From positions 38,828 to 102,827 of the forward strand of contig CALXVH010000001.1 in the NCBI GenBank assembly GCA_944391965.1: a DNA stretch of 64,000 bases. The letters are read 5' to 3'. The DNA comes from an uncultured Clostridia bacterium (lineage in GTDB: Bacteria; Bacillota; Clostridia; TANB77; CAG-508). A program made the translations under genes and the position numbers. This document shows positions 12,062 through 47,716 of this stretch, one piece after another. Position 1 is the first letter of the stretch; each line of letters begins with the position of its first letter. The notes under the pieces were generated by a model that did not search any database, was not told where the DNA came from, and was given only the letters and a program-made list of their open reading frames with translations.

Positions 12062-13066
12062 TTATTTTCTTTTTTTGCCATCTAAAGCATCAAGATTATC
12101 TAAAGCTTTTCCTGTTCCTAATGCCACACAAGAAATCGCATCTTCTGCAATCATTACATTTATACCTGTTTTTTCTTGTAATAATTTATCTAAACCATCT
12201 ACTAGGCAGCCTCCGCCTGTCATGTATATTCCTCTATCACTTATATCTGCTGCAAGTTCTGGTGGAGTTTTTTCTAAAACTGAATGAACAGAGTCCACAA
12301 TCATCATTGCTGGCTCTATCAGAGCTTCTAGCATTTCACTAGAATATACTGTAATTGTTTTTGGTAAACCTGTTGATAAATCTCTTCCTCTTATATCCAT
12401 CTCTACATCTTGTATTTTTGGATAAACACAGCCTATATTTATTTTTAAATCTTCTGCTGTTCTTTCACCTATCATTATATTGTGTTTTCTCTTAATATAT
12501 TTTACTATTGCTTCATCTAATTTATCTCCTGCAACTTTTAAAGAAGTACTTACAACAGAACCGCCTAAAGAAATTACAGCAATATCTGTAGTTCCTCCTC
12601 CAATATCTACTATCATATTTCCACATGGTTTAGAGATATCTATTCCAGCACCTATTGCTGCTGCTATTGGTTCTTCTATTAAATATACTTTACGAGCACC
12701 TGCTTGTGATGCTGCATCTATTACTGCTCTTTTCTCTACTTCTGTTACTTGAGAAGGTATACATATCATTATTCTTGGTGCGAATATAAATTTACCACAC
12801 ACTTTATTTATAAAATATTTTAACATTTTTTCTGTTACTGTATAATCTGATATTACCCCATCTCTTAGTGGTCTAGTGGCTACGATATTTCCCGGTGTTC
12901 TTCCTAGCATTCTTCTTGCTTCCTGACCTACTGCAAGAACATCTCCAGAATTTTTATCTACAGCAACAACAGAAGGTTCTCTTAAAACAATACCTTTGCC
13001 TTTTACATATGCAATTACTGTTGCTGTACCTAAATCTATTCCTATATCTTGACCAAAACCAAACAT
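12062..13066 (-). CDS. mreB: Rod shape-determining protein MreB/Mbl
   Basis: 334 aa, actin-like ATPase motifs DLGTATV and DIGGGTTD. Confidence 0.95.
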   Translation of the reverse strand: MFGFGQDIGIDLGTATVIAYVKGKGIVLREPSVVAVDKNSGDVLAVGQEARRMLGRTPGNIVATRPLRDGVISDYTVTEKMLKYFINKVCGKFIFAPRIMICIPSQVTEVEKRAVIDAASQAGARKVYLIEEPIAAAIGAGIDISKPCGNMIVDIGGGTTDIAVISLGGSVVSTSLKVAGDKLDEAIVKYIKRKHNIMIGERTAEDLKINIGCVYPKIQDVEMDIRGRDLSTGLPKTITVYSSEMLEALIEPAMMIVDSVHSVLEKTPPELAADISDRGIYMTGGGCLVDGLDKLLQEKTGINVMIAEDAISCVALGTGKALDNLDALDGKKRK

Positions 13067-29203: not shown

Positions 29204-30133
29204 CTAATTATAATTACTTATTCTTTTTAAATATTCTTTATCTTCAATTTTAGAAATTGCAAAACATTTCTTTCCTAAATCTTTTAAAGATGCTCCTACA
29301 TGATACAATTCTTTATTATCTATTACGATAAATCTATCATGGAATTTATTGGTATATGCTAATTTTAATACCGGATACTGCTTATTAAATTTTGTAATAT
29401 CTAGTTTATTTAGCTTACTATTTTGTAACGTTAAAATTACAACTTCTACCTTTTGGTTTTTCTTTGATAACATTTTTAAAATGCTATCATCTATGTAATT
29501 GTCTATAATTAATATTTTTTGTTTCGCTTTTTTTATAATATCTATAATTAAACTATAAGCATCATAAATTTGCCCATCAAAAAATATTTTTTGTTTGAAT
29601 TCCATTTTCTCATCTTTTTGTAATTCGTTAAACACTATATCAAATTTTTTATCATGTTCTAATATTTTACATTCTACGTTTGTTAATCTCTTAAATAATT
29701 TTCCATTTAGTGATATAAATTTTCTCATTTCTATAAAAGCTCTTATAATATTAATACTAACTTGTACTGCTATTTCGTTTTTTAGAACTCCTGCTAGCAT
29801 AGATATTCCTTGTTCTGTATAAACATATGGTAAATATCTTCTTCCACCATAATTTTCTTTTTTTAAACTTGAGGTTCCAAATTGGAACCTCAAGTTTTCC
29901 ACTTCTTTTTCTGTTAATTGAAAACAAAAATCCTCTGGAAATCTATTAATATTTCTTTTCATCGCTTTATTTATACTTTTAGTTGTATACTGATATAACA
30001 TTGCAACATCACTATCTAACATTACTTGTTTTCCTCTAATTGTATAAATTAAATTTTTAATATTTTCTGTTTCGTATTTTATTGCATTTAAATCTTCATT
30101 TACTGGTACGATATTATTGTTTTTTTCTTCCAT
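29204..30133 (-). CDS. ORF6N (KilA-N/Rha-like DNA-binding) domain protein
   Basis: 309 aa. N-terminal IRGKQVMLDSDVAMLYQ...RFPEDFCFQLT is typical of the ORF6N domain. The C-terminal domain (FHDRFIVID) has no assigned function. Confidence 0.75.
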   Translation of the reverse strand: MEEKNNNIVPVNEDLNAIKYETENIKNLIYTIRGKQVMLDSDVAMLYQYTTKSINKAMKRNINRFPEDFCFQLTEKEVENLRFQFGTSSLKKENYGGRRYLPYVYTEQGISMLAGVLKNEIAVQVSINIIRAFIEMRKFISLNGKLFKRLTNVECKILEHDKKFDIVFNELQKDEKMEFKQKIFFDGQIYDAYSLIIDIIKKAKQKILIIDNYIDDSILKMLSKKNQKVEVVILTLQNSKLNKLDITKFNKQYPVLKLAYTNKFHDRFIVIDNKELYHVGASLKDLGKKCFAISKIEDKEYLKRISNYN

Positions 30134-31041: not shown

Positions 31042-31062
31042 AATATCACCTTTTCTCTTTTA

Positions 31063-31947
31063 TTATTTAGACAATTTCTTTTTTAATTTTATTTGTCTTT
31101 TTATTAATAAAATCGAAAAGATTACAACAAGTAAAATAGTTGTTACAATAATCCCAAATGATACTATATTATTTGTTGAACTTTCTGCTGCTCCTGTAGC
31201 TTGAGCTGTAATTTCTATAGTGTCATTTTTTCCTGTATAACTGTCTGCCCTGTTATGTTCTTCTTGCAATTCTGTACTTTGGTTTATTGATTTATTATCA
31301 GCTGTGTTTTTTTCATCTATTGCTACCTCATCTTTTTCCTTAACAGAAGCATTTTCTTCTGGTTCAGCTTCATTTCTCTCTGTTAATCCTCTTGTTTTAA
31401 TATATAAAAATGCTCCTACAAAAATAGTTAGCACATTACCCAATAATAATTTTATAGTATTTAATGATTTATAATAATGCCATTGAACTGCTGGAATTTT
31501 CATGTTCAATATATTAGCTATTTCTTTAAAAGATAAATTACTAACTATTTTTAACGATAATATTTCCTGTTGTTTTTGCGGTAAATTCTTTATTAAATTA
31601 TTAAAATATTCTTTATCTAAAACTTTTTCTATTTCTGTATCATTATCTGAGATTTCATATAAATTTTCAAAATTTTTCTCTTTTGAATTTCTCTTTATGT
31701 AATTAATAGTTTCGTTTTTTGCAACCGAATATAACCAACTTAAATGTGATTTAGTCGGTAATTTTTCGTTATCTAATTTAAATATCTTAATAAATACATT
31801 TTGCAATACGTCTTCTGTTTCATCTGTATTTTTTAATATGCTATATATAACACCAAATACTAGTTTTGAATAATTTTTATATAATTCTTCTATTCCTAAT
31901 TTTCTATTTGTTTTTAATAGTTCAAAAATTTCCTCTTCTTTTTTCAT
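31063..31947 (-). CDS. ECF-type sigma-70 family factor fused to two TM segments and an acidic linker
   Basis: 294 aa. Sigma region 2 and region 4 (LSFKEIANILNMKIPAVQWHYYKSL) are followed by a TM, an acidic linker of about 70 aa, then AQATGAAESSTNN, a hydrophobic helix and a KRQIKLKKK tail. Confidence 0.75.
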   Translation of the reverse strand: MKKEEEIFELLKTNRKLGIEELYKNYSKLVFGVIYSILKNTDETEDVLQNVFIKIFKLDNEKLPTKSHLSWLYSVAKNETINYIKRNSKEKNFENLYEISDNDTEIEKVLDKEYFNNLIKNLPQKQQEILSLKIVSNLSFKEIANILNMKIPAVQWHYYKSLNTIKLLLGNVLTIFVGAFLYIKTRGLTERNEAEPEENASVKEKDEVAIDEKNTADNKSINQSTELQEEHNRADSYTGKNDTIEITAQATGAAESSTNNIVSFGIIVTTILLVVIFSILLIKRQIKLKKKLSK

Positions 31948-32010
31948 AATTCCTCCTGTCTTTTAGACAGTTAATATTAATAATTTTGTTAGTATTTTAT
32001 AAATTTTCTA

Positions 32011-32526
32011 TCATTTTTTTATTTGTATATCATCTTTTGCTGGAATATTATTTGTATTTAATGAATATATATAATCTTTTTTACTATCAAAATCTGCATT
32101 TAAAAATTTAAAGATTAGATTTGCTGTATCTAATGCGTGCTTAGGTTCTCCACTACCTCCACCTGTTAATACCAAAATTCCTCTTTTTTTCTTAAATGTA
32201 TGAGTTATATCTAAAAAGTATTTATTACTCCAAATGTAATTTAGTCTTGTTAATAAAGAAAACATTGGTGGAGTTACATTATACATATACACAGGTGATG
32301 CTACTACTAATGTATCATAATCGTCTTTATATATTTTCTCCATATCATCTTTAATAGCACATCCTTTGTTTTTCCAACAATATCTACAGTCTACACATGG
32401 ACTAATTTTAGCATCATATAAAAATATCTCTTCTATTTCTCCCTCTAGTTTTTTCTTTAATTCATTTACTATATATGCTGTATCACCATTTTTATGTGGT
32501 GAACCATTTAAAATTAATGTTTTCAT
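32011..32526 (-). CDS. Flavodoxin-like NAD(P)H-dependent oxidoreductase / iron-sulfur flavoprotein
   Basis: 171 aa with LNGSPHKNGDT and the Cys cluster CVDCRYCWKNKGC. Confidence 0.75.
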   Translation of the reverse strand: MKTLILNGSPHKNGDTAYIVNELKKKLEGEIEEIFLYDAKISPCVDCRYCWKNKGCAIKDDMEKIYKDDYDTLVVASPVYMYNVTPPMFSLLTRLNYIWSNKYFLDITHTFKKKRGILVLTGGGSGEPKHALDTANLIFKFLNADFDSKKDYIYSLNTNNIPAKDDIQIKK

Positions 32527-33209
32527 ACTATAACCTCATTTAATTCTTTTAAATTTGTTATTCTGCTGTATTTATTAAATTGCCTATAATTATTATCCCT
32601 ATCCATTAAAATTGGGCTTAACTTCTTTTTTACTGCAACAACTAATAAATCAGGATTATCATCAACAAATATAGCTTCATTTTCTTTTATATTAAATTCA
32701 TTTATTGGTCTATCAAAAAATTTTCCGTCCTTTTTTAATTCACAATATTCAGAAGAAATATATATCTTAGTAAAGAAATCATATATATTCCACCTTTTTA
32801 AAATATTATAAACACATGGCCAATTGTCTGATAATAATATTAATGTATGCTCTTTACTTGCATCACTTAAAAAATCATATACATCATCATACATAACATA
32901 TTTATCTTCGTTATATACAAAATCTCGTGATAATTTTTCAGCTTGCTCTTTAGGATTTCCATCTATATGTAATTCATTTATTATATTATAATAAAACTCT
33001 TTAAATGCTTCATATTCTTCTTCTCTAGTTGTCAGCTTTACAGATATAAGCGCATTATATTTATTAAATAGAAATTTTAATTTTTTTAAATCTATTTTTT
33101 CTGTTTCTAATATTTCAAAAAAATTTTGTGTTATAAACCATTCTCCTGTTTTTGGTTTTCCTAATACTAATCCAAAGTCCAAAATTATATACTTTTGTTG
33201 CTTAACCAT
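32523..33209 (-). CDS. HAD-superfamily hydrolase (putative)
   Basis: 228 aa with an ILDFGLVL N-terminal motif and VDDNPD near the C-terminus. It overlaps the downstream gene by 4 nt. Confidence 0.55.
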   Translation of the reverse strand: MVKQQKYIILDFGLVLGKPKTGEWFITQNFFEILETEKIDLKKLKFLFNKYNALISVKLTTREEEYEAFKEFYYNIINELHIDGNPKEQAEKLSRDFVYNEDKYVMYDDVYDFLSDASKEHTLILLSDNWPCVYNILKRWNIYDFFTKIYISSEYCELKKDGKFFDRPINEFNIKENEAIFVDDNPDLLVVAVKKKLSPILMDRDNNYRQFNKYSRITNLKELNEVIV

Positions 33210-33223
33210 TATTCCTCCATAAT

Positions 33224-34012
33224 CTATTTATTCAATTTATCATACATTAAATATGAATAACCTTTTAAGTTTCTTCTTGTTATATCTAAGTTTAATTCTT
33301 TTACAAAATTTAATAATAATTGATTTGCTTCATTTATAGGTATATTTTTATCATATACTTCTATTTCCACAAAATATCCCAAATCTTTAACATTATCTAA
33401 TGATATTTCAAATAAGTTCTTATATATGAAGCTATCTCTTTCTTTTATTAAATCACATACTTTGTTTATGCGTACACCTTTTAATATATTAATTGTAGCA
33501 TCTAAATTAGATACTTCTGTCTCATATTCTACAATATGAATATCTTCTTCATCATTTCCCATATATATTTTTTTATAGCATAAAATATATTTGTCTTTTT
33601 GTATTCTTATTCTAATACATTCATCATCAATATCTCCACCAAAAAACGCTGGATTTTCTGGCGAGAAATATATGTCATGTTGTTTTTTATTTGTGTGTTT
33701 ATTATTTTCTTGTTTAAAATAATAAAATAATTTTTTATATTGTTCTTCTTCAATTTCTAATTTTATCTCTATTTCTATACTTGAACTGTTTTTCTTTTTT
33801 ATTAACCTTTCGCCTTGTAAGAGTTCATTAATGGTAACACCTAATATTTGTGATATATCTGTAAACAATGATAAATCAGGCATATATTTTCCTGTTTCCC
33901 ATCTAGATACAGTTTTACTTGTTACTCCTAATTTTTCTGCGAGTTCTGCTTGTTTTAACTTTTTTTCCTTTCTTAGTTCACCTATAAATTTTCCTATTTT
34001 TGCTTGATCCAT
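33224..34012 (-). CDS. XRE-family HTH fused to CYTH (triphosphate tunnel metalloenzyme) domain
   Basis: 262 aa. The N-terminal HTH_3 is LKQAELAEKLGVTSKTVSRWETG. The C-terminal part has the CYTH signature EIEIKLE (ExExK), then RIRI, EYETEV and VEIEV strands. Confidence 0.75.
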   Translation of the reverse strand: MDQAKIGKFIGELRKEKKLKQAELAEKLGVTSKTVSRWETGKYMPDLSLFTDISQILGVTINELLQGERLIKKKNSSSIEIEIKLEIEEEQYKKLFYYFKQENNKHTNKKQHDIYFSPENPAFFGGDIDDECIRIRIQKDKYILCYKKIYMGNDEEDIHIVEYETEVSNLDATINILKGVRINKVCDLIKERDSFIYKNLFEISLDNVKDLGYFVEIEVYDKNIPINEANQLLLNFVKELNLDITRRNLKGYSYLMYDKLNK

Positions 34013-34088
34013 ATTTTCACTCCTTTTGGGTTTATTTCATATATTGTATTAGCTAACTTTAAGTATAGTAAACCCCATAAATAGCGAT

Positions 34089-34661
34089 TTATTTATTAAT
34101 ATCTTGTTCTAATTTTTTTAGTGCTATTTTTCTACTAGTAATATTGTTTTTTTCTTCTGTTTCTAATTCTGCTAATGTTCTACCGTCTTCTAATTCAAAT
34201 ATTTCGTCAAACCCAAATCCGTTATTTCCTCTCGGAGCTTCTGCTATATATCCATTTAGTATTCCATTATATATCTTTTCATTTCCTTGTGAATCTATAT
34301 ATGCAATACATGTTATGAATTGAACTGTTCGTTTAGCTTTTGGAATACCTTCTAATCTTTTTATTAAATAATTATTTCTATCTTCTTGTGTTGCATTTTC
34401 GCCTAAAAATCTTGCAGTTTTAACACCTGGGAATCCATCCAATTCTTCAATGCAAATTCCACTATCATCTGCAATACATGCAGTATTAGTTAAGCTATAA
34501 ATTTTTCTTGCTTTTATTAATGCATTATCTTCGAATGTTTCCCCAGTTTCTTCTATTTCTATATTTATATTCATTTCTTTTAGTGTTTTTATATCTTCAT
34601 TTTTAAGTATCTCTTTAATTTCTTTTGCTTTTCCTTTATTATTTGTCGCTAAAATAATCAT
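34089..34661 (-). CDS. rdgB: Non-canonical purine NTP pyrophosphatase (RdgB/HAM1)
   Basis: 190 aa with the ATNNKGK and GFGFDEIF motifs. Confidence 0.9.
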   Translation of the reverse strand: MIILATNNKGKAKEIKEILKNEDIKTLKEMNINIEIEETGETFEDNALIKARKIYSLTNTACIADDSGICIEELDGFPGVKTARFLGENATQEDRNNYLIKRLEGIPKAKRTVQFITCIAYIDSQGNEKIYNGILNGYIAEAPRGNNGFGFDEIFELEDGRTLAELETEEKNNITSRKIALKKLEQDINK

Positions 34662-34676
34662 CTTACTTCTCCTATC

Positions 34677-34703
34677 GGGATTTTAGGAACGTCCCCAAAT
34701 CCC
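34677..34703 (+). repeat. Family-1 hairpin repeat, canonical unit, operon-internal
   Basis: GGGATTTT-AGGAACGTCCCC-AAATCCC. It lies 8 nt after the ybaK-like stop and immediately upstream of the rdgB SD (AGGAGAAG). No U-tract follows. Confidence 0.85.
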
Positions 34704-34711
34704 TCCCATTG

Positions 34712-35176
34712 TTAAATTTCTATATACTCATTTCCACAATGTTTTATAAATTTTATTAAATCATCATATTTTATAGATACTGTTGCAGTGTTTCTATTTG
34801 GATGAATTAGTACTTTATTATTTTTTAATTCTTTATCTAGTACAACTGTTACTTTTTGTTCTTTATCATTTATTATTCCAAGTGGTGTTACTGATCCTGG
34901 AGTTAGACCTAAATATTCTTGTAAATCGTTTTCATTTGCAAAAGATAATCTTTTACTATTAATTTTTTCTGGTAAAGTTTTTAAATCAGCTCTTTTATTG
35001 TCTGGTAGTGTATACAAAAATAACTTTTTCTTTGCATCTTTTAAAAAGAGATTCTTGCAGCCTATTCCTTCCATTTCTAAACAAACATCTTGTAAATCCT
35101 CTACTGTATAGACAGCTTTATGCTCTTGCAACTTATATTCTATATTTAATTCTTTTAAAACTCCCAAGATATCCAT
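34712..35176 (-). CDS. YbaK/ProX-type aminoacyl-tRNA deacylase domain protein
   Basis: 154 aa with the GSVTPLG motif and YbaK/EbsC-like length. Confidence 0.75.
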   Translation of the reverse strand: MDILGVLKELNIEYKLQEHKAVYTVEDLQDVCLEMEGIGCKNLFLKDAKKKLFLYTLPDNKRADLKTLPEKINSKRLSFANENDLQEYLGLTPGSVTPLGIINDKEQKVTVVLDKELKNNKVLIHPNRNTATVSIKYDDLIKFIKHCGNEYIEI

Positions 35177-35236
35177 AAATTCAACTCCTTTTGTTTAAGC
35201 TAAAATATCACAAAAAACAAAAAAAATCTAGTATAA

Positions 35237-35731
35237 CTAGATTTCTTTTACATCATCTTCAATTAAATAACACATTTCCTCATGTACATCTATATTTTCA
35301 TTAATTTTATTCGTGTCCAATTTTATGTATTTAATAGTTCCATTTGCAAGTACATTTCCTTGTAAATCTAAGATTTTAGAATCTACAACAAAAAATTTAC
35401 TATTTTCTTTTATAAGTATTCCTTTTCCTATTAATTCGGTTTCATATGGTACTGGTTTTCTATATTTTGTATCTAATGACATTGTAACACCAAAATTTTC
35501 TTCATTCCCATCTTTTGCCCATAAAGCTCTTAGTCCCATTTCATCAAGCATTGCAGTAATTAACCCACCATGTACTCTTCCTGGATAGCTTTGATGTTCT
35601 TCTCTATATTTAAATTTTGTCATTACACTTCCATCTTCCATATTATAAAATTGTGCATGTACACCATATTTATTATCCATTCCACATATTGCACACATTT
35701 TACTATTTCTTTGTTTACTTACTACTTTCAT
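35237..35731 (-). CDS. PaaI-family hotdog-fold thioesterase
   Basis: 164 aa with GRVHGGLITAMLDE and an N-terminal CAICG motif. Confidence 0.8.
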   Translation of the reverse strand: MKVVSKQRNSKMCAICGMDNKYGVHAQFYNMEDGSVMTKFKYREEHQSYPGRVHGGLITAMLDEMGLRALWAKDGNEENFGVTMSLDTKYRKPVPYETELIGKGILIKENSKFFVVDSKILDLQGNVLANGTIKYIKLDTNKINENIDVHEEMCYLIEDDVKEI

Positions 35732-35747
35732 TTTTCTACCTCCTAAA

Positions 35748-35820
35748 GGGGATTTAGGGACGTTCCTAAAATCCCTCTTTATATAATTTAAACAAGTAAA
35801 AAAGAACGTCCCCTAAGCCC
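35748..35820. repeat. Family-1 repeats: inverted canonical unit plus forward partial core
   Basis: GGGGATTT-AGGGACGTTCC-TAAAATCCC (35748-35775) directly abuts the thioesterase SD (TAGGAGG). AGAACGTCCCCTAAGCCC (35802-35820) touches the NUDIX stop codon. Confidence 0.8.
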
Positions 35821-36254
35821 TATCCATTATAAAATTCTTTACTTAAATATTTTTCTATTATTCTTCTAGTTGGTATACAGGTATTTTCTGGCATATCTTT
35901 TACAGCAAACCAATCATATTTTACAAGTTCATCTGTTTTTGGCAATTTTATATTTCCACTGTATTCTTCTGCAATTAAACCAAATGTTGCAAATTGTGCA
36001 TAGCTATTTACATCATTTTGTACACAAATTACTTTTATTTTGCTTACATCTAAATTACATTCTTGTTTTGTTTTTCTAATTCCAGCCGCTTCTATTGTTT
36101 CTCCAAATTTTACCTTGCCACTTGGAAGAGTCCACGTGCCTTCTAATCTCATGTCCGAATCTGCCTTTTTTGCATCATCATTCCTAAGTAACATTAATAT
36201 TTTGTTTTCGTTATTTTTAATTATTATTCCTACTCCAATACCTATTTTTTCCAT
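35820..36254 (-). CDS. NUDIX hydrolase
   Basis: 144 aa with the Nudix box GKVKFGETIEAAGIRKTKQECNL. Confidence 0.85.
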   Translation of the reverse strand: MEKIGIGVGIIIKNNENKILMLLRNDDAKKADSDMRLEGTWTLPSGKVKFGETIEAAGIRKTKQECNLDVSKIKVICVQNDVNSYAQFATFGLIAEEYSGNIKLPKTDELVKYDWFAVKDMPENTCIPTRRIIEKYLSKEFYNG

Positions 36255-36312
36255 CTTTTATCCTTTCTTGTATATTTATATCATATTTCATATAAAAAAT
36301 CTATTAATTTAC

Positions 36313-36351
36313 AAAAGTTTTGCGACGTACAATGTACGCCACAAAACTTTT
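36313..36351 (-). terminator. Long GC-containing hairpin overlapping the stop of the 166-aa orphan gene
   Basis: Outer arms AAAAGTTTTG/CAAAACTTTT enclose inner arms CGTACA/TGTACG. On the minus strand a U-rich stretch follows. Confidence 0.65.
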
Positions 36352-36850
36352 ACATAAGATAAACTTTGTCCACTCCTTTTAAGAGTGTTTTGTTAGAAAG
36401 TTGCTTTGCAAGCTCGTCATTCTTTTTCAGCTCCTGTTTAGAGACAATCAAAATTGTCTGATAAGCTAGTTCTTTTTCCATAGCTACTTCAAGGAAGCCT
36501 AACCGAGCATCCAGACTATAAAAATAGCGTTCAACAAGAGCTGTCCCTAGCTTTAAAGCCTTTTTTACTCTTGTATAAAATTCGTTATTGACTTTCTGTT
36601 GGAAGTCATTCATATCTGTAACCGTTTCTTGCAATTCATCTCGGATTACTGAATAAGTAATTCTTCTCACCTTATCTTTTTCTGCAAATTTTCTGATTTT
36701 TTTATTATCAGATAATCCGATAAGCAGAATTAACGTCCGATGTTTAGCAAGTTTTTTAAAATCCGGCTTTTTATTACAAAGCTTTCCCTCCTTTACTGAT
36801 ACTGGAAACATGTTCGCATACCCAGTTTGGGTAAATTGTTTATTTCCCAT
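36350..36850 (-). CDS. Hypothetical protein, modestly G+C-elevated orphan
   Basis: 166 aa with a strong SD (GGAGG). My hand count is 166 G+C in 480 nt (about 35%). I recognise no family. Confidence 0.6.
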   Translation of the reverse strand: MGNKQFTQTGYANMFPVSVKEGKLCNKKPDFKKLAKHRTLILLIGLSDNKKIRKFAEKDKVRRITYSVIRDELQETVTDMNDFQQKVNNEFYTRVKKALKLGTALVERYFYSLDARLGFLEVAMEKELAYQTILIVSKQELKKNDELAKQLSNKTLLKGVDKVYLM

Positions 36851-36909
36851 TTTTTTCTACCTCCTTGAAATTTATTCACTTTTTATTATACCATTTTACT
36901 CAAATTGCC

Positions 36910-37596
36910 TCAACCATTTATAACATCTTTTATAACTTCTCCAGCTATAATTAGACCTGCTACAGAAGGTACAAAAGATATACTTGCAGGTGTTTTATAG
37001 TCACCATCATTTGGTTTTATTGGTTCTTCTTTTGAATATACTACTTTTAATTTTTGTATACCTCTTGAACGTAATTCTTTTCTCATTACTTTTGCAAGAG
37101 GACATACAGAAGTTTTATAAATATCTGCCACTTCAAACTTAGTTGGATCCAATTTATTTCCTGTTCCCATTGCAGAAATTATAGGAATATTAAGTTCATT
37201 AGCTCTGCATACTAATTCTATTTTTCCAGTTACTGTATCTATTGCATCTACTATATAATCTAACGAATTATCTACTAGCTTACTTCCTGGCATAAAGAAC
37301 TCTGTAGATATATCTACTTCTGCTTGTGGATTTATGTTTAATATTCTTTCTTTCATAACATCTACTTTATTTTTTCCTATAGTAGTTATATTGGCATGTA
37401 TTTGTCTATTTATATTAGTAATATCTACTGTATCATTGTCAACTAATAAAAATTTTCCTATTCCTGCTCTTGCCAAGCCTTCTACAACAAAAGAACCTAC
37501 TCCACCAATTCCGAATACTGCGACTTTTGATTTATTTAATTTTTCTACATTTTCTTTTCCTATTAATCTTTCCTCTCTACTAAAACCTTCGTACAT
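36910..37596 (-). CDS. tcdA: tRNA threonylcarbamoyladenosine dehydratase (ThiF/TcdA family)
   Basis: 228 aa with the Rossmann motif GIGGVGS and E1-like ThiF family features. Confidence 0.8.
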   Translation of the reverse strand: MYEGFSREERLIGKENVEKLNKSKVAVFGIGGVGSFVVEGLARAGIGKFLLVDNDTVDITNINRQIHANITTIGKNKVDVMKERILNINPQAEVDISTEFFMPGSKLVDNSLDYIVDAIDTVTGKIELVCRANELNIPIISAMGTGNKLDPTKFEVADIYKTSVCPLAKVMRKELRSRGIQKLKVVYSKEEPIKPNDGDYKTPASISFVPSVAGLIIAGEVIKDVING

Positions 37597-37690
37597 TTTT
37601 CCTCCTATAAATATAAACTAAAATAATTATATCTCTTAATATAATTTATTAAAAGATGCACTTAAACTTTCGTGCATCTTTTATAATAAA

Positions 37691-40303
37691 CTATTTCATC
37701 TTTTCTTTTATTTTCATTAAAGTATTTAGTGCATCTATAGGCGTTAATGTATTTAAATCAATCTTATCAAGTTCTTGTGCTATTTCTGCTAATTTGTAAT
37801 TATATAAATCTAGTTGACCTGCTTGAACTTGTTTATTTTCTTTTTCCATTTTCTTACTACCTAAAATACTTTTTCTTTCTAAGCTTCTTAATATTTCATT
37901 TGCTCTTTTTAATACTTCTTTTGGAACTCCTGCAAGCCTTGCAACATGAACACCATAACTTTCATCTGTTCCGCCTCTTACAATCTTTCTTAAAAAGATT
38001 ACATCTTCACCTTTTTCCTTAACTGCTATAGAATAATTTTTTACACCTTCTAGTTTATCTTCTAATTCTATAAGTTCATGGTAATGTGTTGCAAATAATG
38101 TTTTAGCTCCACATTTTGTTTTATCAGAAATATATTCAGCAACTGCCCATGCAATTGATAATCCATCATATGTTGATGTTCCTCTTCCAATTTCATCTAA
38201 TATTACTAGACTGTTTTTAGTAGCTTCTTTTAAGATATCTGCAACTTCCATCATTTCAACCATGAATGTACTTTGCCCCATACTTAGATCATCTGATGCA
38301 CCAACTCTTGTAAATATTTTATCTACAACACCTATATGTGCTTCTGATGCTGGAACAAAACTTCCTATTTGAGCCATTAAAGTAATTAGTGCAACTTGTC
38401 TCATATATGTAGATTTACCAGCCATATTAGGGCCAGTTATAATTGATAATCTGTTTTCATCATTATCCATATATGTATCATTATCTATAAAACTTCCTGT
38501 TGGAAGCATTTTTTCGATTACTGGATGTCTTCCTTCTTTTATTTCTATTTTTCCAGCATTGTCAACTATTGGCATACAGTAATTCATATCTTCTGCAACA
38601 GTTGCAAATGAAGCTAACACATCTAGCGTTGCAATTATCATTGCAGATTTTTGAAGTCTTTTTACATTTTTAGCAATTTCTTGTCTTATCTCTGTAAATG
38701 CTTCATATTCCAAATTGATAACTTTGTCTTCGGCTCCTAAAATTTGATTTTCTAATTCTTTTAACTCTTCTGTTATATATCTCTCACAATTTGTTAATGT
38801 TTGTTTTCTTATATATCTATCTGGAACTTGTGGTAAATTTGATTTTGTTACTTCTATATAATAACCAAATACTTTATTAAATCCAACTTTTAAATTTTTA
38901 ATTCCTGTTTTTTCTTTTTCTTTTTCTTCTTATTTAATTAACCAATTCTTACCTTCTGTTGTAGCAGTTTTTAATTTATCAATTTCTTCATTATATCCTA
39001 GTTTTATTAGTCCACCTTCTTTTACTGTCATTGGTGGATCTTCTACTATTGATTTTTCAATTAGCTCATAAATATCTTTTAGTTCATCTAAGTTATTATA
39101 AAGTTCTTGTAACATAGTTGAACTTGTATTTTGTAATACAGCTTTTACTTCTGGCAATTTTGATAAAGAATTTTTTAAAGATATCATATCCCTACCATTT
39201 GCATTACCATATGATATTTTTCCTGCTAGTCTTTCAATATCATAAACCTTTTTTAGGCTTTCTATAATATCTCCTCTAAGCATTACATTTTCTTTTAGTT
39301 CTTTTACTGCATTTAATCTCTTATTTATTTCGTTAACATCTATTAATGGATCATTTATCCATCTTCTTAAATGTCTTCCTCCCATTGATGTTGATGTTTT
39401 ATCTAACACCCACAAAAGAGTACCTTTTTTGCTTTTATCTCTCATTTTCTCTGTAAGTTCTAGGTTTCTTCTTGCATTAATATCTAAAGACATATATCTA
39501 GTTGTGTTATACATAATTATTTTGTTAATATGTTCTAAGCTTGTTTTTTGTGTTTGTTTTAGATACTCTACTAATGCATTTATACTTGCAACAGAAAAAA
39601 GTCTTTTATCTATATCTTTTATAGGATTGTCATCATTATCAACTAAATTGTAGTTTTCTACTATTGTATTTATGTCTTCTGAAAAGAATTTATCATTAAA
39701 TCTTGTAAAATATATTTCAAATCTTTCTTTTATTTTGCTTATCTCTTCTGTGCTATCATACATCATGCTATTTACAACTAATTCCGCTGGTGAATATCTT
39801 GCAATTTCATCTAATACTAAAGGAAAATTATTGTTTTCTTTTATTTCTGTACTATAAAAATCTCCTGTAGTTACATCACATACAGCAATTCCATAATAGA
39901 TTCCTTTTTTTACAATTGACATGATATAATTGTTTTTCTTTTCTTCTAACATATTAGATTCTATTACTGTACCTGGTGTAACAACACGAATAACCCCTCT
40001 TTTTACAATTCCTTTTGCTGTTTTTGGATCTTCTAATTGTTCACATATTGCAACTTTATACCCTTTAGCAATTAGTTTTGAAATATAAATTTCTGCTGCA
40101 TGATGTGGCACACCACACATTGGTGCTCTTTCTGCCTGTCCACAATCTTTGCCAGTTAAAGTTAGTTCTAGTTCTCTTGATACTGTTATAGCATCATCAA
40201 AGAACATTTCGTAAAAATCTCCTAATCTATAAAAAAGTATACAGTCTTTATATTCTTCTTTTGTTTCAAGATACCTTTGCATCATTGGTGAATATTCTGC
40301 CAT
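37691..40303 (-). pseudogene. mutS: DNA mismatch repair protein MutS with a single in-frame TAA at codon 458
   Basis: The 457-aa N-terminal ORF (GDFYEMF) ends ...NWLIK-TAA at 38930-38932. The same frame continues [28 protein letters not shown]... into the 340-aa C-terminal ORF, which has [21 protein letters not shown] and ATHYHEL. The total is 871 codons, the length of a normal MutS. Confidence 0.85.
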
Positions 40304-40426
40304 TTGTATATTCCTTACCTTTCTATTTTAGTCCTAATTCTTCTAACTTGTCTTCTGTTAATTTCTCTATTTTGTATTTTTTCCGTTAAGGTTATAATAT
40401 GCTTCTAATTTCATAATTTACCTTTT

Positions 40427-41323
40427 CTATTTTCTTGAATCATCATCTTGTTCTTCTCTTCCTGTAAGTTTTTCATATGCCTCCACAGTCTTTCCAGCTC
40501 TTCTTATTGTACTAATAGACACTTTTAATTTCTCTGCAGCCTCTTTTTGAGTAGTTCCTAATTCTTTTACCTCTGCTAGTAAACTTTTTGCTTTTTCATA
40601 TTTTTTCTCAGCTTCTGTTTTTTGACTACTTATTATTACAGGTCCTTCATCATAATTTTCTAGTGTACTTTGGATTAATATCCTTTCTAATTGTTCAAAT
40701 ACAGATGCTTTATCTTGTGAATTTCCTTTTTGCATTTTTCTTCTTGACAATTCTTTTGCTATTTCAAATATTGTTTTATATTCTTCATTCTTTTCAAGTT
40801 TAGCTAATTCTCTACTTATTGTTCTAGGTGGTATACCATACTTTCCAGCCATATCTGTTTGGCTTGCTTCTTCTGCAATCATTTCTATAAATAGAGCTTT
40901 AAAATTTATATGTGAATAGTCGGGATGCTTTCTAGCTTCATATTCTATATATGATCTTTTTAATTCATCATCATTTGAATCATTAACATAAGCCACAATA
41001 TTTTCTTTAAATGTTTGTTGATCTATGTCTTCACCAGTTCTTAAATATAATTCTCTTGCATCATTTAAAGTTTTTAGTTCTCCAGCTAAAAGTCTCTCTA
41101 CTATTTTCCCTAACCTTGTCTCATCAATATCTTTCTTTTGTAACTCACTCTTGTTTTTGGCTAATATTTTTTCTAATTTTTCTCTTTGTTCTGAATTTTC
41201 TGGAAATCTTTCTTCACACATTTCTCTAAACTTTTTTCTATCGATTCTATAAATTTTTTCGCATTCTCTTACTGATTTTCCATCTAGAACTGCAAGAAAC
41301 ATTTTTTCAAAATTATCTTCCAT
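40427..41323 (-). CDS. Hypothetical protein with three HTH-like segments
   Basis: 298 aa from the ATG at 41323 (GGAGG SD, 1 nt after the miaB stop). Three HTH-like stretches are present: SVRECEKIYRIDRKKF, SQTDMAGKYGIPPRTISREL and TQKEAAEKLKVSISTIRRA. Confidence 0.6.
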   Translation of the reverse strand: MEDNFEKMFLAVLDGKSVRECEKIYRIDRKKFREMCEERFPENSEQREKLEKILAKNKSELQKKDIDETRLGKIVERLLAGELKTLNDARELYLRTGEDIDQQTFKENIVAYVNDSNDDELKRSYIEYEARKHPDYSHINFKALFIEMIAEEASQTDMAGKYGIPPRTISRELAKLEKNEEYKTIFEIAKELSRRKMQKGNSQDKASVFEQLERILIQSTLENYDEGPVIISSQKTEAEKKYEKAKSLLAEVKELGTTQKEAAEKLKVSISTIRRAGKTVEAYEKLTGREEQDDDSRK

Positions 41324-41324
41324 T

Positions 41325-42740
41325 CTAACCTCCAATTAAACTTCCTTTCAAATACCACATATGTTCAGAAACAATTTTTAAATCTATTATTTCATTTATT
41401 AAATCTTTATCTCCTTCAAATATAACAACCTTATTGCTATCAGTTCTTCCTGTTAGCATATTTGGATTGTTTTTACTTGTTCCTTCTACTAAAACTTTTT
41501 GAATTGTTCCAACATATTTTTGGTTATTTTCTTCAATTTGACTTTCTACTAATTCTTTTAATCTGTCAAATCTTTTGTGTTTTATTTCTTCTGGAACTTG
41601 GTTTGGCATTTTATCTCCTGGAGTTCCAACTCTTCTTGAGTATATAAACATATATACTTGTTCGAATTTTACTTTTCTAACTACATCTAATGTATCTTCA
41701 AATTCTTCATCTGTTTCTCCTGGAAAACCTACTATAATATCTGTTGATAATGTTAAATTTGGTATTTTATTTTTCATTTTTTCTACTAAATTTAGATATT
41801 GCTCTTTAGTATATTTCCTATTCATCTCTTTTAAGACTTTAGAATTTCCAGATTGTAATGGTAAATGTATTAGTTTACATACTTTATCACAATCTGCTAT
41901 TGCTTCTATTACATCTTCTGTAAAATCTTTTGGATGTGGAGAAACAAATCTAATTCTTTCAATTCCATCAATTTTATTTATTGCACTTAATAATGTTGCA
42001 AAAGAGTTTACACCTTCATATGCTTCAAATTCTATATTTTTCTCTTTTTCTACTCTTAGATATGAATTAACATTTTGACCTAATAAAGTAATTTCTTTAT
42101 ATCCTTCTTTTGCAAGTTCTTTTACTTCATTAATAATATCTTTTGGCATTCTGCTTCTTTCTCTTCCACGTACATATGGCACTATACAATATGTACAAAA
42201 ATTGTTGCATCCATTCATTATTGTTACAGAAGCTTTTATATTGCTATCTCTTTTTATTGGTAAACCTTCGAAAATTTCACCATCTATATCTATAACATCT
42301 TTTACTTTCTCTCTTGTTTTTAGTGCTTTAAATAGATCTTCTGGAAATCTATATAATGTATGTGTTCCAAATACTACATCTACAAATGGATAGCTTTGTT
42401 TTATTTTATCTGTAATGTGTTTTTCTTGCATCATACAACCACCAATAGCTATAATTGTTCCATTAGCTTCTTTTATTCTTTTTAATTCTCCTAGTTTTCC
42501 AAAAAGTTTATCTTCTGCATTTTCTCTTACACAACATGTATTAAATAAAGCTATATCTGAATCTTCAAAATTCTCTGTTCTCGTATATCCCATTTCTTCT
42601 AACATTCCACATAACTTTTCAGAATCATTTTCGTTTAATTGACACCCCATTGTTAGAATGCAATATTTTAAGTTTTTATTATTTTTATTTATTTCTTTTA
42701 TTTCATCTATATATTTTCTTTGCTCTTCTACTTTTTCCAC
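41325..42740 (-). CDS. miaB: tRNA-i6A37 methylthiotransferase MiaB
   Basis: 471 aa with the radical-SAM motif CNNFCTYC, an N-terminal UPF0004 Cys triad and a C-terminal TRAM domain. GTG start with an AGGAGG SD. Confidence 0.9.
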   Translation of the reverse strand: MEKVEEQRKYIDEIKEINKNNKNLKYCILTMGCQLNENDSEKLCGMLEEMGYTRTENFEDSDIALFNTCCVRENAEDKLFGKLGELKRIKEANGTIIAIGGCMMQEKHITDKIKQSYPFVDVVFGTHTLYRFPEDLFKALKTREKVKDVIDIDGEIFEGLPIKRDSNIKASVTIMNGCNNFCTYCIVPYVRGRERSRMPKDIINEVKELAKEGYKEITLLGQNVNSYLRVEKEKNIEFEAYEGVNSFATLLSAINKIDGIERIRFVSPHPKDFTEDVIEAIADCDKVCKLIHLPLQSGNSKVLKEMNRKYTKEQYLNLVEKMKNKIPNLTLSTDIIVGFPGETDEEFEDTLDVVRKVKFEQVYMFIYSRRVGTPGDKMPNQVPEEIKHKRFDRLKELVESQIEENNQKYVGTIQKVLVEGTSKNNPNMLTGRTDSNKVVIFEGDKDLINEIIDLKIVSEHMWYLKGSLIGG

Positions 42741-42837
42741 GTTAAATCCTCCTATTGCCCCTATATTCTATATTATTTTCTAAGTTTTTTCAAGTGATTT
42801 TGTGTTCAAGTTTATCCATAAGTTAACCTTTCCATAT

Positions 42838-42881
42838 AAAAACAAACTGTGGGCTGAAAACCTTAATTTTTTCCCCCACAG
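42838..42881 (-). terminator. Orphan terminator-like hairpin about 130 nt downstream of the rpmE terminator
   Basis: On the minus strand, CTGTGGG...CCCACAG is followed by TTTGTTTTT. No ORF lies between it and the rpmE terminator. Confidence 0.5.
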
Positions 42882-43008
42882 TTATACATAATTTTTACTT
42901 ATTTATTTTTACCTAAAAATGAATTTACCACATTTGCAAATCACTTTACAATCGCAAAGATATATGTGCCTTAACTTATTATATAATTTCCTATATAATA
43001 TATAGTAA

Positions 43009-43041
43009 GAAAAAAGAAAATTATAACGCTTTATAATTTTC
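43009..43041 (-). terminator. rpmE intrinsic terminator
   Basis: On the minus strand, GAAAATTATAA-AGCG-TTATAATTTTC is followed by TTTTTTCT. It begins 10 nt after the rpmE stop. Confidence 0.75.
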
Positions 43042-43050
43042 TTATATATC

Positions 43051-43251
43051 TTATTGAATTCCATATTTCTTTTTAAATTTATCTGCTCTACCACCTGTTG
43101 TATCTTTTCTTAAATTACCTGTCCAGAATGGATGACATTTTGAGCAAACATCTACTTTTATAGATTCTTTTGTTGAGTTTGTTTCTATTACATTACCACA
43201 AGCACATGTAATTGTTGCAGCAGTATATTTTGGATGTATTCCTTCTTTCAT
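43051..43251 (-). CDS. rpmE: 50S ribosomal protein L31 (Zn-ribbon type A)
   Basis: 66 aa starting MKEGIHPKY, with CxC...CxxC cysteines. Confidence 0.95.
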
Positions 43252-43341
43252 TTATGTTCACCTCTTCCTTTTCTTCGTAAAATGCTGTATATTATCATAA
43301 CATATATTTCATTAATTTTCAAGCCCTAATTTCTTTTTTAT

Positions 43342-43503
43342 TTAATTTACTTCATTTGTTTGTTCATGATCTAGAATGTATTGTCCAGATGTTTCTAGCT
43401 CTTCTTTTAAAGATGTTTTATTTACTAGTTTAAAAGTTATATTAAACAAACAAGCTATTACTAATATTATTAAACCTATTCTTTTCCAATATTTAGCTAG
43501 CAT
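43342..43503 (-). CDS. Small hypothetical membrane protein (53 aa), not in the ORF track
   Basis: ATG at 43503 preceded by AAGGAGAGG. It encodes MLAKYWKRIGLIILVIACLFNITFKL... with one TM helix and a TAA stop at 43342-43344. Confidence 0.45.
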   Translation of the reverse strand: MLAKYWKRIGLIILVIACLFNITFKLVNKTSLKEELETSGQYILDHEQTNEVN

Positions 43504-43675
43504 TTGGACCTCTCCTTCTCTCTTAAACTCATATTTCTATTATACTATATTTTATTTTTTTGTCAATATTTTTAACGTTTATCATATGTTTTGGTATTTT
43601 TTTGCTCATTTCGTGTAAAAATATTATAAAATATTTTATTGTGCCTATTATTTTTATTTGAGAGGATTGAATTTT

Positions 43676-44362
43676 ATGAAAAAGAAAATGCTACTATTTT
43701 TTATTATTTTACTTACTACAATTTGTTTTTCTGGATGTAGTAAAGAAGAAAAAACTCAAACAGAAGTTAATACTGTCGAAGTTAATAGAACATCGATTGA
43801 TATTAGTGATGTTTCTTTAAATGAAATATCAAATAATACAATCTTTAATAATACTTCTTCTACTAGCACTACTTCTAATTCCACTAAATCAACAAATACT
43901 AATAAATCTGAAGAATTGCTAGCACAATTTTCTACTAGAATATACTCTACAGATTCTGCAAGACAAAATAATTTAGAAATAACATCTAACAAATTAAATG
44001 GAACTATTGTAAAACCTAATGAAACATTTTCTTTTACAAAAACAATTGGACCTTCTACCTCTGCTAAAGGATATGAGGAAGCAGATATATATGATTCAAA
44101 TGGAAATAAAATTAAAGGTTATGGTGGTGGAAACTGTCAGGTAAGTTCTACCTTATACAATGCTGTCCAAAAGGTTTCATCTCTTAAAGTTGTAGAAAGA
44201 CACGAACACAGTAACACTGTTCCATATGTAAAAGAAGGTCATGATGCTGCAGTAGCATATGGAAGTGTTGATTTTAAATTTAAAAACACCAATAATTATA
44301 GTATAAAAATTTTAGCTCAAGCCTCAAAAAAATACGTTGTAGTTAAATTAATTAAAATTTAA
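43676..44362 (+). CDS. VanW-family lipoprotein
   Basis: Lipobox FSGC after the signal peptide, and the VanW motif GGGNCQVSSTLYNAV. The start is set at the ATG after GAGAGGA; the ORF track starts at an upstream TTG. Confidence 0.8.
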   Translation: MKKKMLLFFIILLTTICFSGCSKEEKTQTEVNTVEVNRTSIDISDVSLNEISNNTIFNNTSSTSTTSNSTKSTNTNKSEELLAQFSTRIYSTDSARQNNLEITSNKLNGTIVKPNETFSFTKTIGPSTSAKGYEEADIYDSNGNKIKGYGGGNCQVSSTLYNAVQKVSSLKVVERHEHSNTVPYVKEGHDAAVAYGSVDFKFKNTNNYSIKILAQASKKYVVVKLIKI

Positions 44363-44413
44363 TTCATATATTTTCTCCTTTAGCATATATTTTAGGAAAA
44401 GGAGGGGATTAAA

Positions 44414-45637
44414 ATAAGAAAATTTATTTATAAACTTTTAATTTCTATAATTATTTTTAGTTTAATATTAACCCCAATTTCTTGTTTTGCATATACTGAT
44501 TCTTCATATGTTTGGTCTTCACCAGAAGTCTTAACTAGTGTTATTGCTGATGAACAATCACAATTAGCGGAAAATAGCTTAAATCTCACATGTGGAAGCG
44601 CTATATTAATTGAACAATCAACTGGAAAAATACTATATGAACATAATGTACATGAACAATTACGTCCTGCAAGTGTTACTAAAGTTATGACAATTCTTTT
44701 AATTATGGAAGCAATAGATTCTGGTAGATTAAGTTATACAGACCAAATACCCTGTAGTGAAAATGCAAGCTCAATGGGTGGTTCACAAATATGGCTTGAT
44801 ACAAAAGAAACTTTAAGTGTAGACGAAATGTTAAAAGCCATATGTGTTGTTTCTGCAAATGATTGTACTGTTGCAATGGCGGAATATTTGGCTGGTTCTG
44901 AAGAAAACTTTGTTGCACAAATGAATGCAAAAGCAAAGGAACTTGGAATGAATGATACTACTTTTAAAAATTGTCATGGTATAGATGAAGATGGTCATGT
45001 ATCTTCTAGTTATGATATTGCGCTTATGTCTCGCGAACTTTTAGAAAAACACCCTGATATAAAAAAATATACTACAATATACATGGATTCTTTACGTGAT
45101 GGAAAATCTGAATTAGTCAATACTAATAAATTAGTCAGAAATTATAGAGGAGCTACTGGATTAAAAACAGGTTCTACTTCTCTTGCACTATATAATCTAT
45201 CAGCATCTGCAACTCGTGATAGTTTATCCTTAATTGCTGTAATAATGAAGGCACCTACTACTAAAGATAGATTTGCTGAAGCAACTAAATTATTAGATTA
45301 TGGCTTTGCAAATTATTCTTATAAAACTTTTGCTCAGAAAGGTGATACTATTAAAGAAGTTCCATTATCTAAAGGGGTTTCTTCATCCGTTTGCGCAGTA
45401 CTTGCTAATGATGCAGGAATTCTTCTAAAAAAAGGTGAAGAAAGTAATATTGAGCAAAATATTAATCTTCCTGATGAAATATCTGCACCTATAAATGAAG
45501 GTGATAAACTAGGTGAAATTTCTTATTCATTAAATGGTGAAACAATTGCAACTATTGATATAGTCGCAAAAAACAGTGTAGATAAAATAGATTTACCTCA
45601 TATGTTACAATATGTATTTAAATCTTGGATTAATTAA
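44414..45637 (+). CDS. D-alanyl-D-alanine carboxypeptidase (PBP5/S11 family) with a non-canonical ATA (or ATT) start
   Basis: The frame is open from 44396. The signal peptide IRKFIYKLLISIIIFSLILTPISCFA and the catalytic SVTK (SxxK) lie upstream of the first ATG (44687). AAGGAGG sits 8 nt before the ATA at 44414. No ATG, GTG or TTG is available in that interval. Confidence 0.75.
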   Translation: MRKFIYKLLISIIIFSLILTPISCFAYTDSSYVWSSPEVLTSVIADEQSQLAENSLNLTCGSAILIEQSTGKILYEHNVHEQLRPASVTKVMTILLIMEAIDSGRLSYTDQIPCSENASSMGGSQIWLDTKETLSVDEMLKAICVVSANDCTVAMAEYLAGSEENFVAQMNAKAKELGMNDTTFKNCHGIDEDGHVSSSYDIALMSRELLEKHPDIKKYTTIYMDSLRDGKSELVNTNKLVRNYRGATGLKTGSTSLALYNLSASATRDSLSLIAVIMKAPTTKDRFAEATKLLDYGFANYSYKTFAQKGDTIKEVPLSKGVSSSVCAVLANDAGILLKKGEESNIEQNINLPDEISAPINEGDKLGEISYSLNGETIATIDIVAKNSVDKIDLPHMLQYVFKSWIN

Positions 45638-45697
45638 AATTTTATATAAGAAAATAGCCTTAAGTTATATATTTCAACTTGCCATATATTAAAGAAA

Positions 45698-45743
45698 GGG
45701 ATTTGAGGAACGTCCCCAAATCCCTAAGGAACACCCAAATCCC
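45698..45743 (+). repeat. Family-1 repeat: canonical unit plus degenerate half unit
   Basis: GGGATTT-GAGGAACGTCCCC-AAATCCC (45698-45724), then TAAGGAACACCC-AAATCCC (45725-45743). The last base is the first base of the fbp stop codon. Confidence 0.85.
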
Positions 45744-47695: not shown

Positions 47696-47716
47696 TTTTA
47701 TTCACCTAATTCTTTT

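What the first reader, a model, noticed from the sequence alone, without database searches (positions are those of the whole stretch)
38930..38932. Single in-frame TAA splits an otherwise intact mutS
The mutS reading frame is continuous from 40303 to 37691 (871 codons) except for one TAA at codon 458 (...[40 protein letters not shown]...). Every hallmark on both sides is intact: [28 protein letters not shown] and ATHYHEL. The lesion must therefore be very recent, or be a sequencing or assembly error. TAA is one substitution away from CAA, GAA, AAA, TTA or TAT. If real, the cell makes only a 457-aa fragment lacking the clamp, ATPase and dimerisation domains. That predicts a mismatch-repair-null mutator phenotype.
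Basis: seen in the sequence. Interest (0 to 1): 0.65.

Follow-up and report, generated by a model that had tools for sequence, protein, structure and literature searches.

The report
mutS stop codon, probably assembly error
The stop codon that splits the DNA-repair gene mutS is really in this sequence, but it is one of seven odd letters packed into 54 bases that no other sample of the same bacterium has, so it is most likely a local error of this metagenome assembly rather than a natural mutator strain.

Summary
The TAA at 38932..38930 (- strand) is there and is the only stop in an 871-codon mutS frame with all five MutS domains. It is not an isolated point mutation. It is one of seven substitutions within 54 nt (38882-38935). 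At all seven sites the window has A on the coding strand where every close relative has C, T, C, C, G, G, T (CAA TTA GAA GCA ACA..GAG..AAG..GGT).

A chicken-gut run (X1) carries the same clone. It showed no other difference over about 45 kb laid and shares the window's rare SNP at 37621, yet it reads TTA (Leu). So do three other runs, 10 independent assemblies of the species and 118 of 120 homologues (2 have Val). The only other window-versus-X1 differences are two synonymous changes to A, 3 nt apart, in the conserved mreB DIGGGTTD motif.

No scattered SNPs or indels exist, so there is no mutator footprint. mutS is the only broken gene found. The patch lies where more abundant community members share near-identical sequence and carry window-type letters. 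No indexed public run holds the patch.

Best reading: a local consensus or assembly error in a low-coverage MAG (about 0.72). A real clustered mutation in one clone is not excluded (about 0.15-0.2). The source reads were not available.

The parts
37691..40303 (-). mutS reading frame, 871 codons including the internal TAA and the terminal stop. Its orthologue is a contiguous 870-aa protein in relatives.
38930..38932 (-). In-frame TAA at codon 458. All close relatives read TTA (Leu). Among 120 homologues, 118 have Leu and 2 have Val.
38882..38935 (-). 54-nt patch with 7 letters private to this sequence, at 38935, 38931, 38925, 38922, 38912, 38897 and 38882. The window has A on the coding strand at each; the species has C, T, C, C, G, G, T. 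The effects are Q457K, L458*, A460E, T461K and 3 synonymous changes. The result is a perfect GAA(GAAAAA)x3 tract with no indel.
38933..40303 (-). The 457-aa N-terminal product that would be made if the stop is real (MutS domains I, II and most of III).
   Evidence: This exact product is not on record in any public assembly.
37694..38929 (-). Untranslated remainder of the frame: end of domain III, clamp domain IV, ATPase domain V and the C-terminal region. The first in-frame start codon after the stop is TTG at 38713.
12596..12599 (-). Second, smaller patch of the same kind in mreB: GGT GGT GGA becomes GGA GGA GGA (synonymous) in the DIGGGTTD motif. Apart from the mutS patch, these are the only places where the window differs from run X1 in the stretches laid.

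Best explanation
The TAA is a local consensus or assembly error in a low-coverage metagenome-assembled contig of an uncultured, 27.6%-GC chicken-gut Clostridia bacterium. The organism's real mutS is intact and reads CAA TTA GAA GCA ACA at codons 457-461. The error sits where mutS is both low-complexity (a Glu/Lys-rich EKEKEK stretch) and next to a highly conserved motif ([21 protein letters not shown]). More abundant community members have near-identical sequence there. Their letters were mixed into the consensus by k-mer error correction, bubble collapse, or mismatch polishing with mis-recruited reads. This produced a mosaic that exists in no real molecule and happens to contain a stop. The same process changed two synonymous letters in the conserved mreB motif. 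Shown: the patch is private, clustered, one-directional and absent from the same clone elsewhere. Inferred: the exact software step that made it.
For: (1) Run X1 holds 0.97 of the window's 31-mers over 10 kb. Its contigs showed no other difference from the window over 36500-41500, 1-20000 and 40001-60000. The exceptions are 7 letters in 38882-38935 and 2 at 12596/12599. X1 also shares the window's A at 37621, which 19 other loci lack, so it is the same clone, and it reads TTA.
(2) X3 and X4 cover all 7 sites and X2 covers 2 of them, from two further studies; all agree with X1.
(3) Ten assemblies that encode the identical ThiF neighbour (Logan, NCBI GCA_964261755.1, ENA) all read CTCCGGT at the 7 sites. 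L092 and L094 differ from the window's mutS by only one other base.
(4) All 9 differences are to A on the - strand, with no indel. They fall in two tight clusters, and each makes the local sequence more repetitive: (GAAAAA)x3 and (GGA)x3. This is not a point-mutation or mismatch-repair-deficiency spectrum.
(5) No public run in the index holds the patch. At most 1 of 4 sampled words is held, and that word also occurs in sheep and bovine gut runs. The 457-aa product is on record nowhere. The patch with a free codon 458 is absent from the GTDB species representatives and JGI metagenomes.
(6) Foreign look-alikes exist. In X1 itself, window-type letters at 38882, 38897, 38912, 38922 and 38925 sit on other contigs with summed depth 18-76, against 8.4 for the clone. 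A 32-mer at 38891-38922 is exact in another organism's contig. An unrelated contig with unlike flanks matches 38908-38939 with 2 mismatches, and contigs of matching depth carry T at 38931 and 38935 in X11 and X3. The window-type mreB words occur in many other gut metagenomes.
(7) Logan contigs break around the patch in every run, which indicates a tangled assembly graph there.
(8) Local assembly errors unsupported by any read, including inside repeat-containing genes, are documented for MAGs (PMC7111523).
Against: The reads from which this contig was built were not available, so lack of read support is inferred, not shown. A pure de Bruijn chimera needs every k-mer to exist in some read. The k-mers that join the TAA to the clone-specific upstream flank were seen in no run, so a correction or polishing step must be assumed. 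No single foreign sequence carrying all seven letters was found. The strict one-directionality (9 of 9 to A) is only loosely explained by the A-richness of the shared low-complexity sequence.
Confidence: 0.72

Rival explanations
1. The patch is real. A single clustered multi-nucleotide mutation in one clone or sub-population hit 54 nt of mutS and one of the seven changes created a stop, giving a very young mismatch-repair-null mutator. Candidate mechanisms are error-prone bypass of several closely spaced abasic or damaged template bases with A inserted opposite them ('A-rule'), or a slippage or template-switch event in the imperfect GAAAAA repeat.
For: The sequence stands in the window without ambiguity. 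All changes are to A on one strand, as A-rule bypass would give, and 5 of the 7 template bases on the + strand are purines. The central changes convert GCAACA and GAGAAA to the neighbouring unit GAAAAA. A 10-nt quasi-palindrome (38873-38882 / 38932-38941) becomes more perfect through 2 of the 7 changes. No read-level data for the source contradict it.
Against: It needs a second, independent event of the same odd kind in mreB. There are no scattered mutations against X1 in about 45 kb. The allele is seen in no other run or assembly. Both patches lie exactly where foreign look-alike sequence is abundant. A mutational process has no reason to respect that, whereas an assembly process does.
Confidence: 0.13
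2. The patch is a short homologous-recombination import from an unsampled related lineage. That lineage's allele either already carried the stop or gained it afterwards.
For: Four of the seven window letters (38922, 38912, 38897, 38882) are the normal state in a 92%-identical sister lineage (L082-L084). Lys at codon 457 occurs in more distant homologues (P0041, P0043). Other lineages carry AAAGAAAAAGAAAAAACAGGAATTAAAAA exactly (L085-L087).
Against: No donor with AAA-NNN-GAA-GAA-AAA was found in the GTDB representatives or JGI metagenomes. 38935, 38931 and 38925 are private against all 22 aligned loci. L082 differs from the window at 38911, 38900, 38893 and 38891 inside the tract. A 54-nt tract at 13% divergence flanked by perfect identity is unusually short, and an extra nonsense event or a pseudogene donor is needed.
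Confidence: 0.05
3. The TAA is read through or recoded, or the two halves work as a split MutS, so the gene is functional as written.
For: Both halves are undecayed.
Against: TAA is the ordinary stop of 35 of 53 ORFs in the window. There is no tRNA, and hence no suppressor, in the window. All relatives encode one contiguous 868-875-aa protein with Leu or Val at this site. The first in-frame start after the stop is 72 codons downstream. Lack of decay is fully explained by the lesion being an artefact or very young.
Confidence: 0.01

Closest known systems
Local assembly errors in metagenome-assembled genomes (Chen et al. 2020, Genome Res, PMC7111523)
   Same: A short stretch of consensus disagrees with independent assemblies of the same population. 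It lies in repeat-like or shared sequence and corrupts a protein-coding gene. Coverage is low (about 8x in the closest run).
   Different: Those errors are defined by lack of support from even one read. That could not be tested here because the source reads are not at hand. This one is substitution-only and length-preserving, not a gap or collapse.
Natural mutS-defective mutator strains, known from E. coli, Salmonella and Pseudomonas aeruginosa isolates (my own knowledge of the literature; no paper was read for this)
   Same: A premature stop in mutS would leave a 457-aa fragment without the clamp, ATPase and dimerisation parts, which would be a null allele.
   Different: Real mutators carry an excess of transitions and homopolymer frameshifts genome-wide. 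Here there are no differences from the sister clone outside two tiny patches. The lesion itself is a 7-substitution cluster, not a typical point mutation, indel or IS insertion.
Clustered multi-nucleotide mutations from translesion synthesis or template switching, including quasi-palindrome and repeat-templated mutagenesis (my own knowledge)
   Same: Several substitutions occur within tens of nucleotides at once, in one direction, and some make a repeat more perfect.
   Different: No template copy exists in the window. The quasi-palindrome explains at most 2 of 7 changes. The co-location with foreign-shared sequence is not expected for a mutational process.

Membership tests
MutS (MutS1) mismatch-repair ATPase | Domains I (mismatch binding), II, III, IV (clamp) and V (ABC ATPase) in order | tested here: met
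   MutS_I 2e-46, MutS_II 9e-20, MutS_III 3e-48, MutS_IV 3e-25, MutS_V 1.5e-88; 98% identity to 870-aa proteins with the same five domains.
MutS (MutS1) mismatch-repair ATPase | Catalytic and recognition motifs (GDFYE Phe-X-Glu, Walker [10 protein letters not shown], Walker B DEIGRGT, ATHYHEL) | tested here: met
   Read directly in the translation.
MutS (MutS1) mismatch-repair ATPase | One uninterrupted reading frame | tested here: not met
   TAA at codon 458. The frame is uninterrupted in every relative.
Natural mutS-null mutator lineage | Inactivating lesion supported by the organism's own reads or resequencing | not testable with these tools
   The source reads were not identified. No indexed run holds the patch words. 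The raw-read runs tried do not contain the strain.
Natural mutS-null mutator lineage | Excess of private, scattered transitions and homopolymer indels relative to the closest wild-type relative | tested here: not met
   Against X1 there are 9 differences in about 45 kb. All are in two clusters, none is scattered, and there are no indels.
Natural mutS-null mutator lineage | Excess of pseudogenes | tested here: not met
   The other large ORFs in the window match the gene lengths of relatives. mutS is the only split gene found.
Local assembly error of a MAG | Consensus not supported by any read of the source library | not testable with these tools
   Only indirect evidence: the patch is absent from the Logan contigs of all indexed runs and from the assemblies searched.
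Local assembly error of a MAG | Independent assemblies of the same population disagree with it and agree with each other | tested here: met
   X1 (same clone), X2, X3, X4 and L088-L097 all read CTCCGGT (X2 at the 2 sites it covers).
Local assembly error of a MAG | Lies in repeated, low-complexity or inter-genome shared sequence where the assembly graph is tangled | tested here: met
   Depth spikes of up to 266 against 8-10 for the clone, with contig breaks at 38790-38940. Window-type letters sit on foreign contigs. The mreB patch words are common in other gut metagenomes.

The most novel reading that the evidence does not exclude
The 54-nt patch is a real, single-step clustered mutation: seven substitutions, all to A on one strand, as expected from A-rule bypass of clustered abasic sites or from a repeat-templated switch. 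It knocked out mutS in a wild clone of an uncultured chicken-gut Clostridia bacterium, caught so early that no secondary mutations have yet accumulated. A second, smaller event of the same kind occurred in mreB.
Probability: 0.13. Interest if true: 0.45.

Novelty: not a real feature. Interest (0 to 1): 0.1.

Why it matters
Taken at face value, this stop would label an uncultured gut bacterium as a natural mismatch-repair-null mutator. It would also enter databases as a mutS pseudogene. The evidence says the species, and even the same clone in another run, has an intact mutS.

The practical value is as a worked example. A stop in an otherwise perfect gene of a MAG should be checked against sister samples before it is interpreted. 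Substitution-only, length-preserving mosaic patches at conserved or low-complexity motifs are a recognisable signature of cross-organism consensus errors. If the patch were real, it would be a rare snapshot of a clustered multi-base mutation creating a mutator, but that is the less likely reading.

Tried and rejected
- Recoding or suppression: rejected. TAA ends 35 of 53 ORFs, there is no tRNA in the window, and relatives are contiguous.
- Search for a natural donor allele: the patch with a free codon 458 gave 0 hits in JGI metagenome contigs and GTDB representatives. A looser pattern found only lineages with ALEAKEKEK or AIETKEKEK, not K-L-E-E.
- Ectopic template inside the window: none within 3 mismatches.
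- Quasi-palindrome templating: one 10-nt inverted repeat accounts for at most 2 of the 7 changes.
- 6-nt slippage templating: fits 38925, 38922, 38912 and 38931 but not 38935, and in an A-rich tract almost any offset gives A, so it is not diagnostic.
- Finding the source run: no run holds all words. The best is X1 at 0.92 (900 nt) and 0.97 (10 kb). A query restricted to the patch gave at most 1 of 4 words.
- Raw reads of 2026 runs X59, X60 and X43: the strain is absent or nearly so, and only low-complexity look-alikes were laid.
- Retrieving the unrelated look-alike gene by its flanks: 0 hits.
- One search failed on length. As a result, 20001-36499 and 60001-64000 were never compared with X1.
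- Panel-based 'private site' counts for 21000-32000 are not meaningful because only 94-97% relatives cover that part.

Full report
**1. The observation**

On the - strand the frame 40303..37691 has 871 codons. Its single internal stop is TAA at 38932..38930, codon 458. The sequence upstream of the stop matches MutS domains I, II and III. The sequence downstream matches domains IV and V, with very strong scores.

**2. The organism**

- The window has 27.6% G+C.
- The closest public sequences are chicken-gut metagenome assemblies of an uncultured Clostridia lineage. Contigs of 1.3-1.9 Mb exist for it.
- In all relatives the gene order is miaB - HTH gene - mutS - thiF-like - ..., and the window follows it.
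- The 120 best homologues are contiguous proteins of 868-893 aa (one is truncated at 767 aa). At the position of the stop, 118 have Leu and 2 have Val.

**3. The stop is not a lone change**

Logan contigs of four runs were laid on the region. They differ from the window at 38882, 38897, 38912, 38922, 38925, 38931 and 38935. On the + strand the window has T at each of these sites.

On the coding strand the relatives read CAA TTA GAA GCA ACA GAA AAA GAG ... AAG ... GGT. The window reads AAA TAA GAA GAA AAA GAA AAA GAA ... AAA ... GGA. That is seven changes in 54 nt, all to A, with no indel. The effects are Q457K, L458*, A460E, T461K and three synonymous changes. The result is a perfect GAA(GAAAAA)x3 tract.

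**4. Polarity and privacy of the changes**

- Run X1 holds 0.97 of the window's sampled 31-mers over 10 kb.
- Its contigs showed no other difference from the window over 36500-41500 apart from the seven letters.
- Over 40001-60000 there is no difference at all.
- Over 1-20000 there are only two, at 12596 and 12599.
- X1 shares the window's A at 37621, which X2, X3, X4 and 19 aligned loci lack. X1 therefore carries the same clone, and it reads TTA.
- X3 and X4 (another study) agree with X1 at all seven patch sites. X2 (a third study) covers two of them and also agrees. These are slightly different strains.
- Ten independent assemblies encode the identical ThiF neighbour. They come from Logan, NCBI GCA_964261755.1 and several ENA assemblies. 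All read C, T, C, C, G, G, T at the seven sites. Two of them (L092, L094) differ from the window's mutS by one other base only.
- Against all 22 aligned loci, including lineages only 92-94% identical, 38925, 38931 and 38935 are private to the window.
- The exact 457-aa product is on record in no public assembly.
- The patch with codon 458 left free is absent from the GTDB species representatives and JGI metagenome contigs.
- No indexed sequencing run holds more than one of the four sampled patch words.

**5. The second patch**

The only other differences between the window and X1 are in mreB: GGT GGT GGA becomes GGA GGA GGA. Both changes are synonymous and lie in the DIGGGTTD motif. They are again to A on the - strand, and again they make a perfect short repeat. 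The window-type 31-mers of that spot are held by many unrelated gut metagenomes from cattle, sheep, rat and rabbit. They look like other organisms' mreB.

**6. Where the patch lies**

- Depth from look-alike contigs rises to 100-266 between about 38790 and 38935, against 8-10 for the clone.
- Logan contigs of every run break there.
- In X1 itself, window-type letters at 38882, 38897, 38912, 38922 and 38925 are carried by other, more abundant contigs with summed depth 18-76.
- A 32-mer at 38891-38922 is exact in another organism's contig.
- An unrelated contig with unlike flanks matches 38908-38939 with two mismatches. In X11 and X3, contigs of matching depth (12.7 and about 10.5) carry the window's T at 38931 and 38935.

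Every window-type letter can therefore be found on foreign look-alike DNA in chicken-gut samples, but never all together on one molecule.

**7. Tests of the mutator prediction**

A real mismatch-repair-null clone should differ from its sister by scattered transitions and homopolymer indels. There are none in about 45 kb. The other large ORFs of the window match the gene lengths of relatives. TAA is the ordinary stop codon here, used by 35 of 53 ORFs, and the window has no tRNA. Recoding is therefore not an option.

**8. Explanation**

The most economical reading is a local consensus error of a low-coverage metagenome assembly. Letters of more abundant look-alike sequences replaced the clone's own letters at two places where sequence is shared between organisms. 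One place is a low-complexity Glu/Lys stretch next to a conserved MutS motif. The other is the conserved MreB phosphate-binding motif.

Substitution-only, length-preserving mosaics of this kind would be expected from three steps: k-mer-based read correction, bubble collapse, or mismatch polishing with mis-recruited reads. Which step acted here is my inference. Local assembly errors unsupported by any read, including inside repeat-containing genes, are described for MAGs in PMC7111523. I give this reading about 0.72.

**9. Rivals**

- A real clustered multi-nucleotide mutation (A-rule bypass or repeat-templated switch) gets about 0.13. It fits the one-directional changes. It needs a second event of the same kind in mreB, and it does not explain why both patches coincide with foreign-shared sequence.
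- A short recombination import gets about 0.05. Four of the seven letters are normal in a sister lineage, but no donor was found, three letters are private, and a stop must still be explained.
- Read-through or a split functional MutS gets about 0.01.

**10. Limits**

- The reads behind this contig could not be identified, so lack of read support is inferred.
- The raw-read runs available did not contain the strain.
- The k-mers that join the TAA to the clone-specific upstream flank were seen nowhere. This fits a consensus-level artefact, but it is also what a truly private allele would show.

**11. Verdict**

The stop codon is in the sequence but most probably not in the organism. It should not be read as a natural mutator allele without read-level confirmation. 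Interest is low.

Noticed in passing
window 12596-12599 (mreB, ORF 12062..13066 -): Two synonymous letters (GGT GGT to GGA GGA in the DIGGGTTD motif) are private to the window against X1, X3, L098 and L099. They go in the same 'to A on the - strand' direction as the mutS patch. The window-type words are common in other animals' gut metagenomes.
   Followed up: partly
window 1065, 4859, 6057, 13813, 15682, 18501, 18535, 18554, 34686, 35756, 35803, 45707: The G+C-rich 11-mer GGAACGTCCCC occurs 12 times (up to 1 mismatch) in a 27.6%-GC window, against 0.02 expected. By position every copy is intergenic, mostly just after the stop of a - strand gene. At 18501-18545 two copies form an inverted repeat. 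Logan contigs break or jump between these sites. This looks like a REP-like or terminator-like dispersed element.
   Followed up: partly
window 29124-30134 (ORF6N-domain gene 29204..30133 -): This gene is 100% identical in nucleotides in strains that are only about 94% identical on both sides. Its exact protein is listed in 1638 blocks of the public collection. Other strains carry an extra Bro-N gene and a NUDIX gene next to it, which the window and L102 lack. It looks like a mobile or prophage-remnant island.
   Followed up: no
L091 (ENA scaffold XIEH16-1_SAMEA3449282_METAG-scaffold_2005), mutS at 1290-3906: Another public assembly of the same species also shows a split mutS (83 + 753 aa). 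That scaffold has 42 N and a non-matching 5' end in the gene, so the split is probably an independent assembly artefact rather than a second natural knock-out.
   Followed up: partly
window 36910-42740 and L082-L107: In this lineage mutS is followed by a ThiF-family gene and small housekeeping genes. No MutL-family gene is annotated next to it in any relative. From my own knowledge, many Firmicutes have a miaB-mutS-mutL arrangement. mutL, if present, must lie elsewhere in the genome.
   Followed up: no
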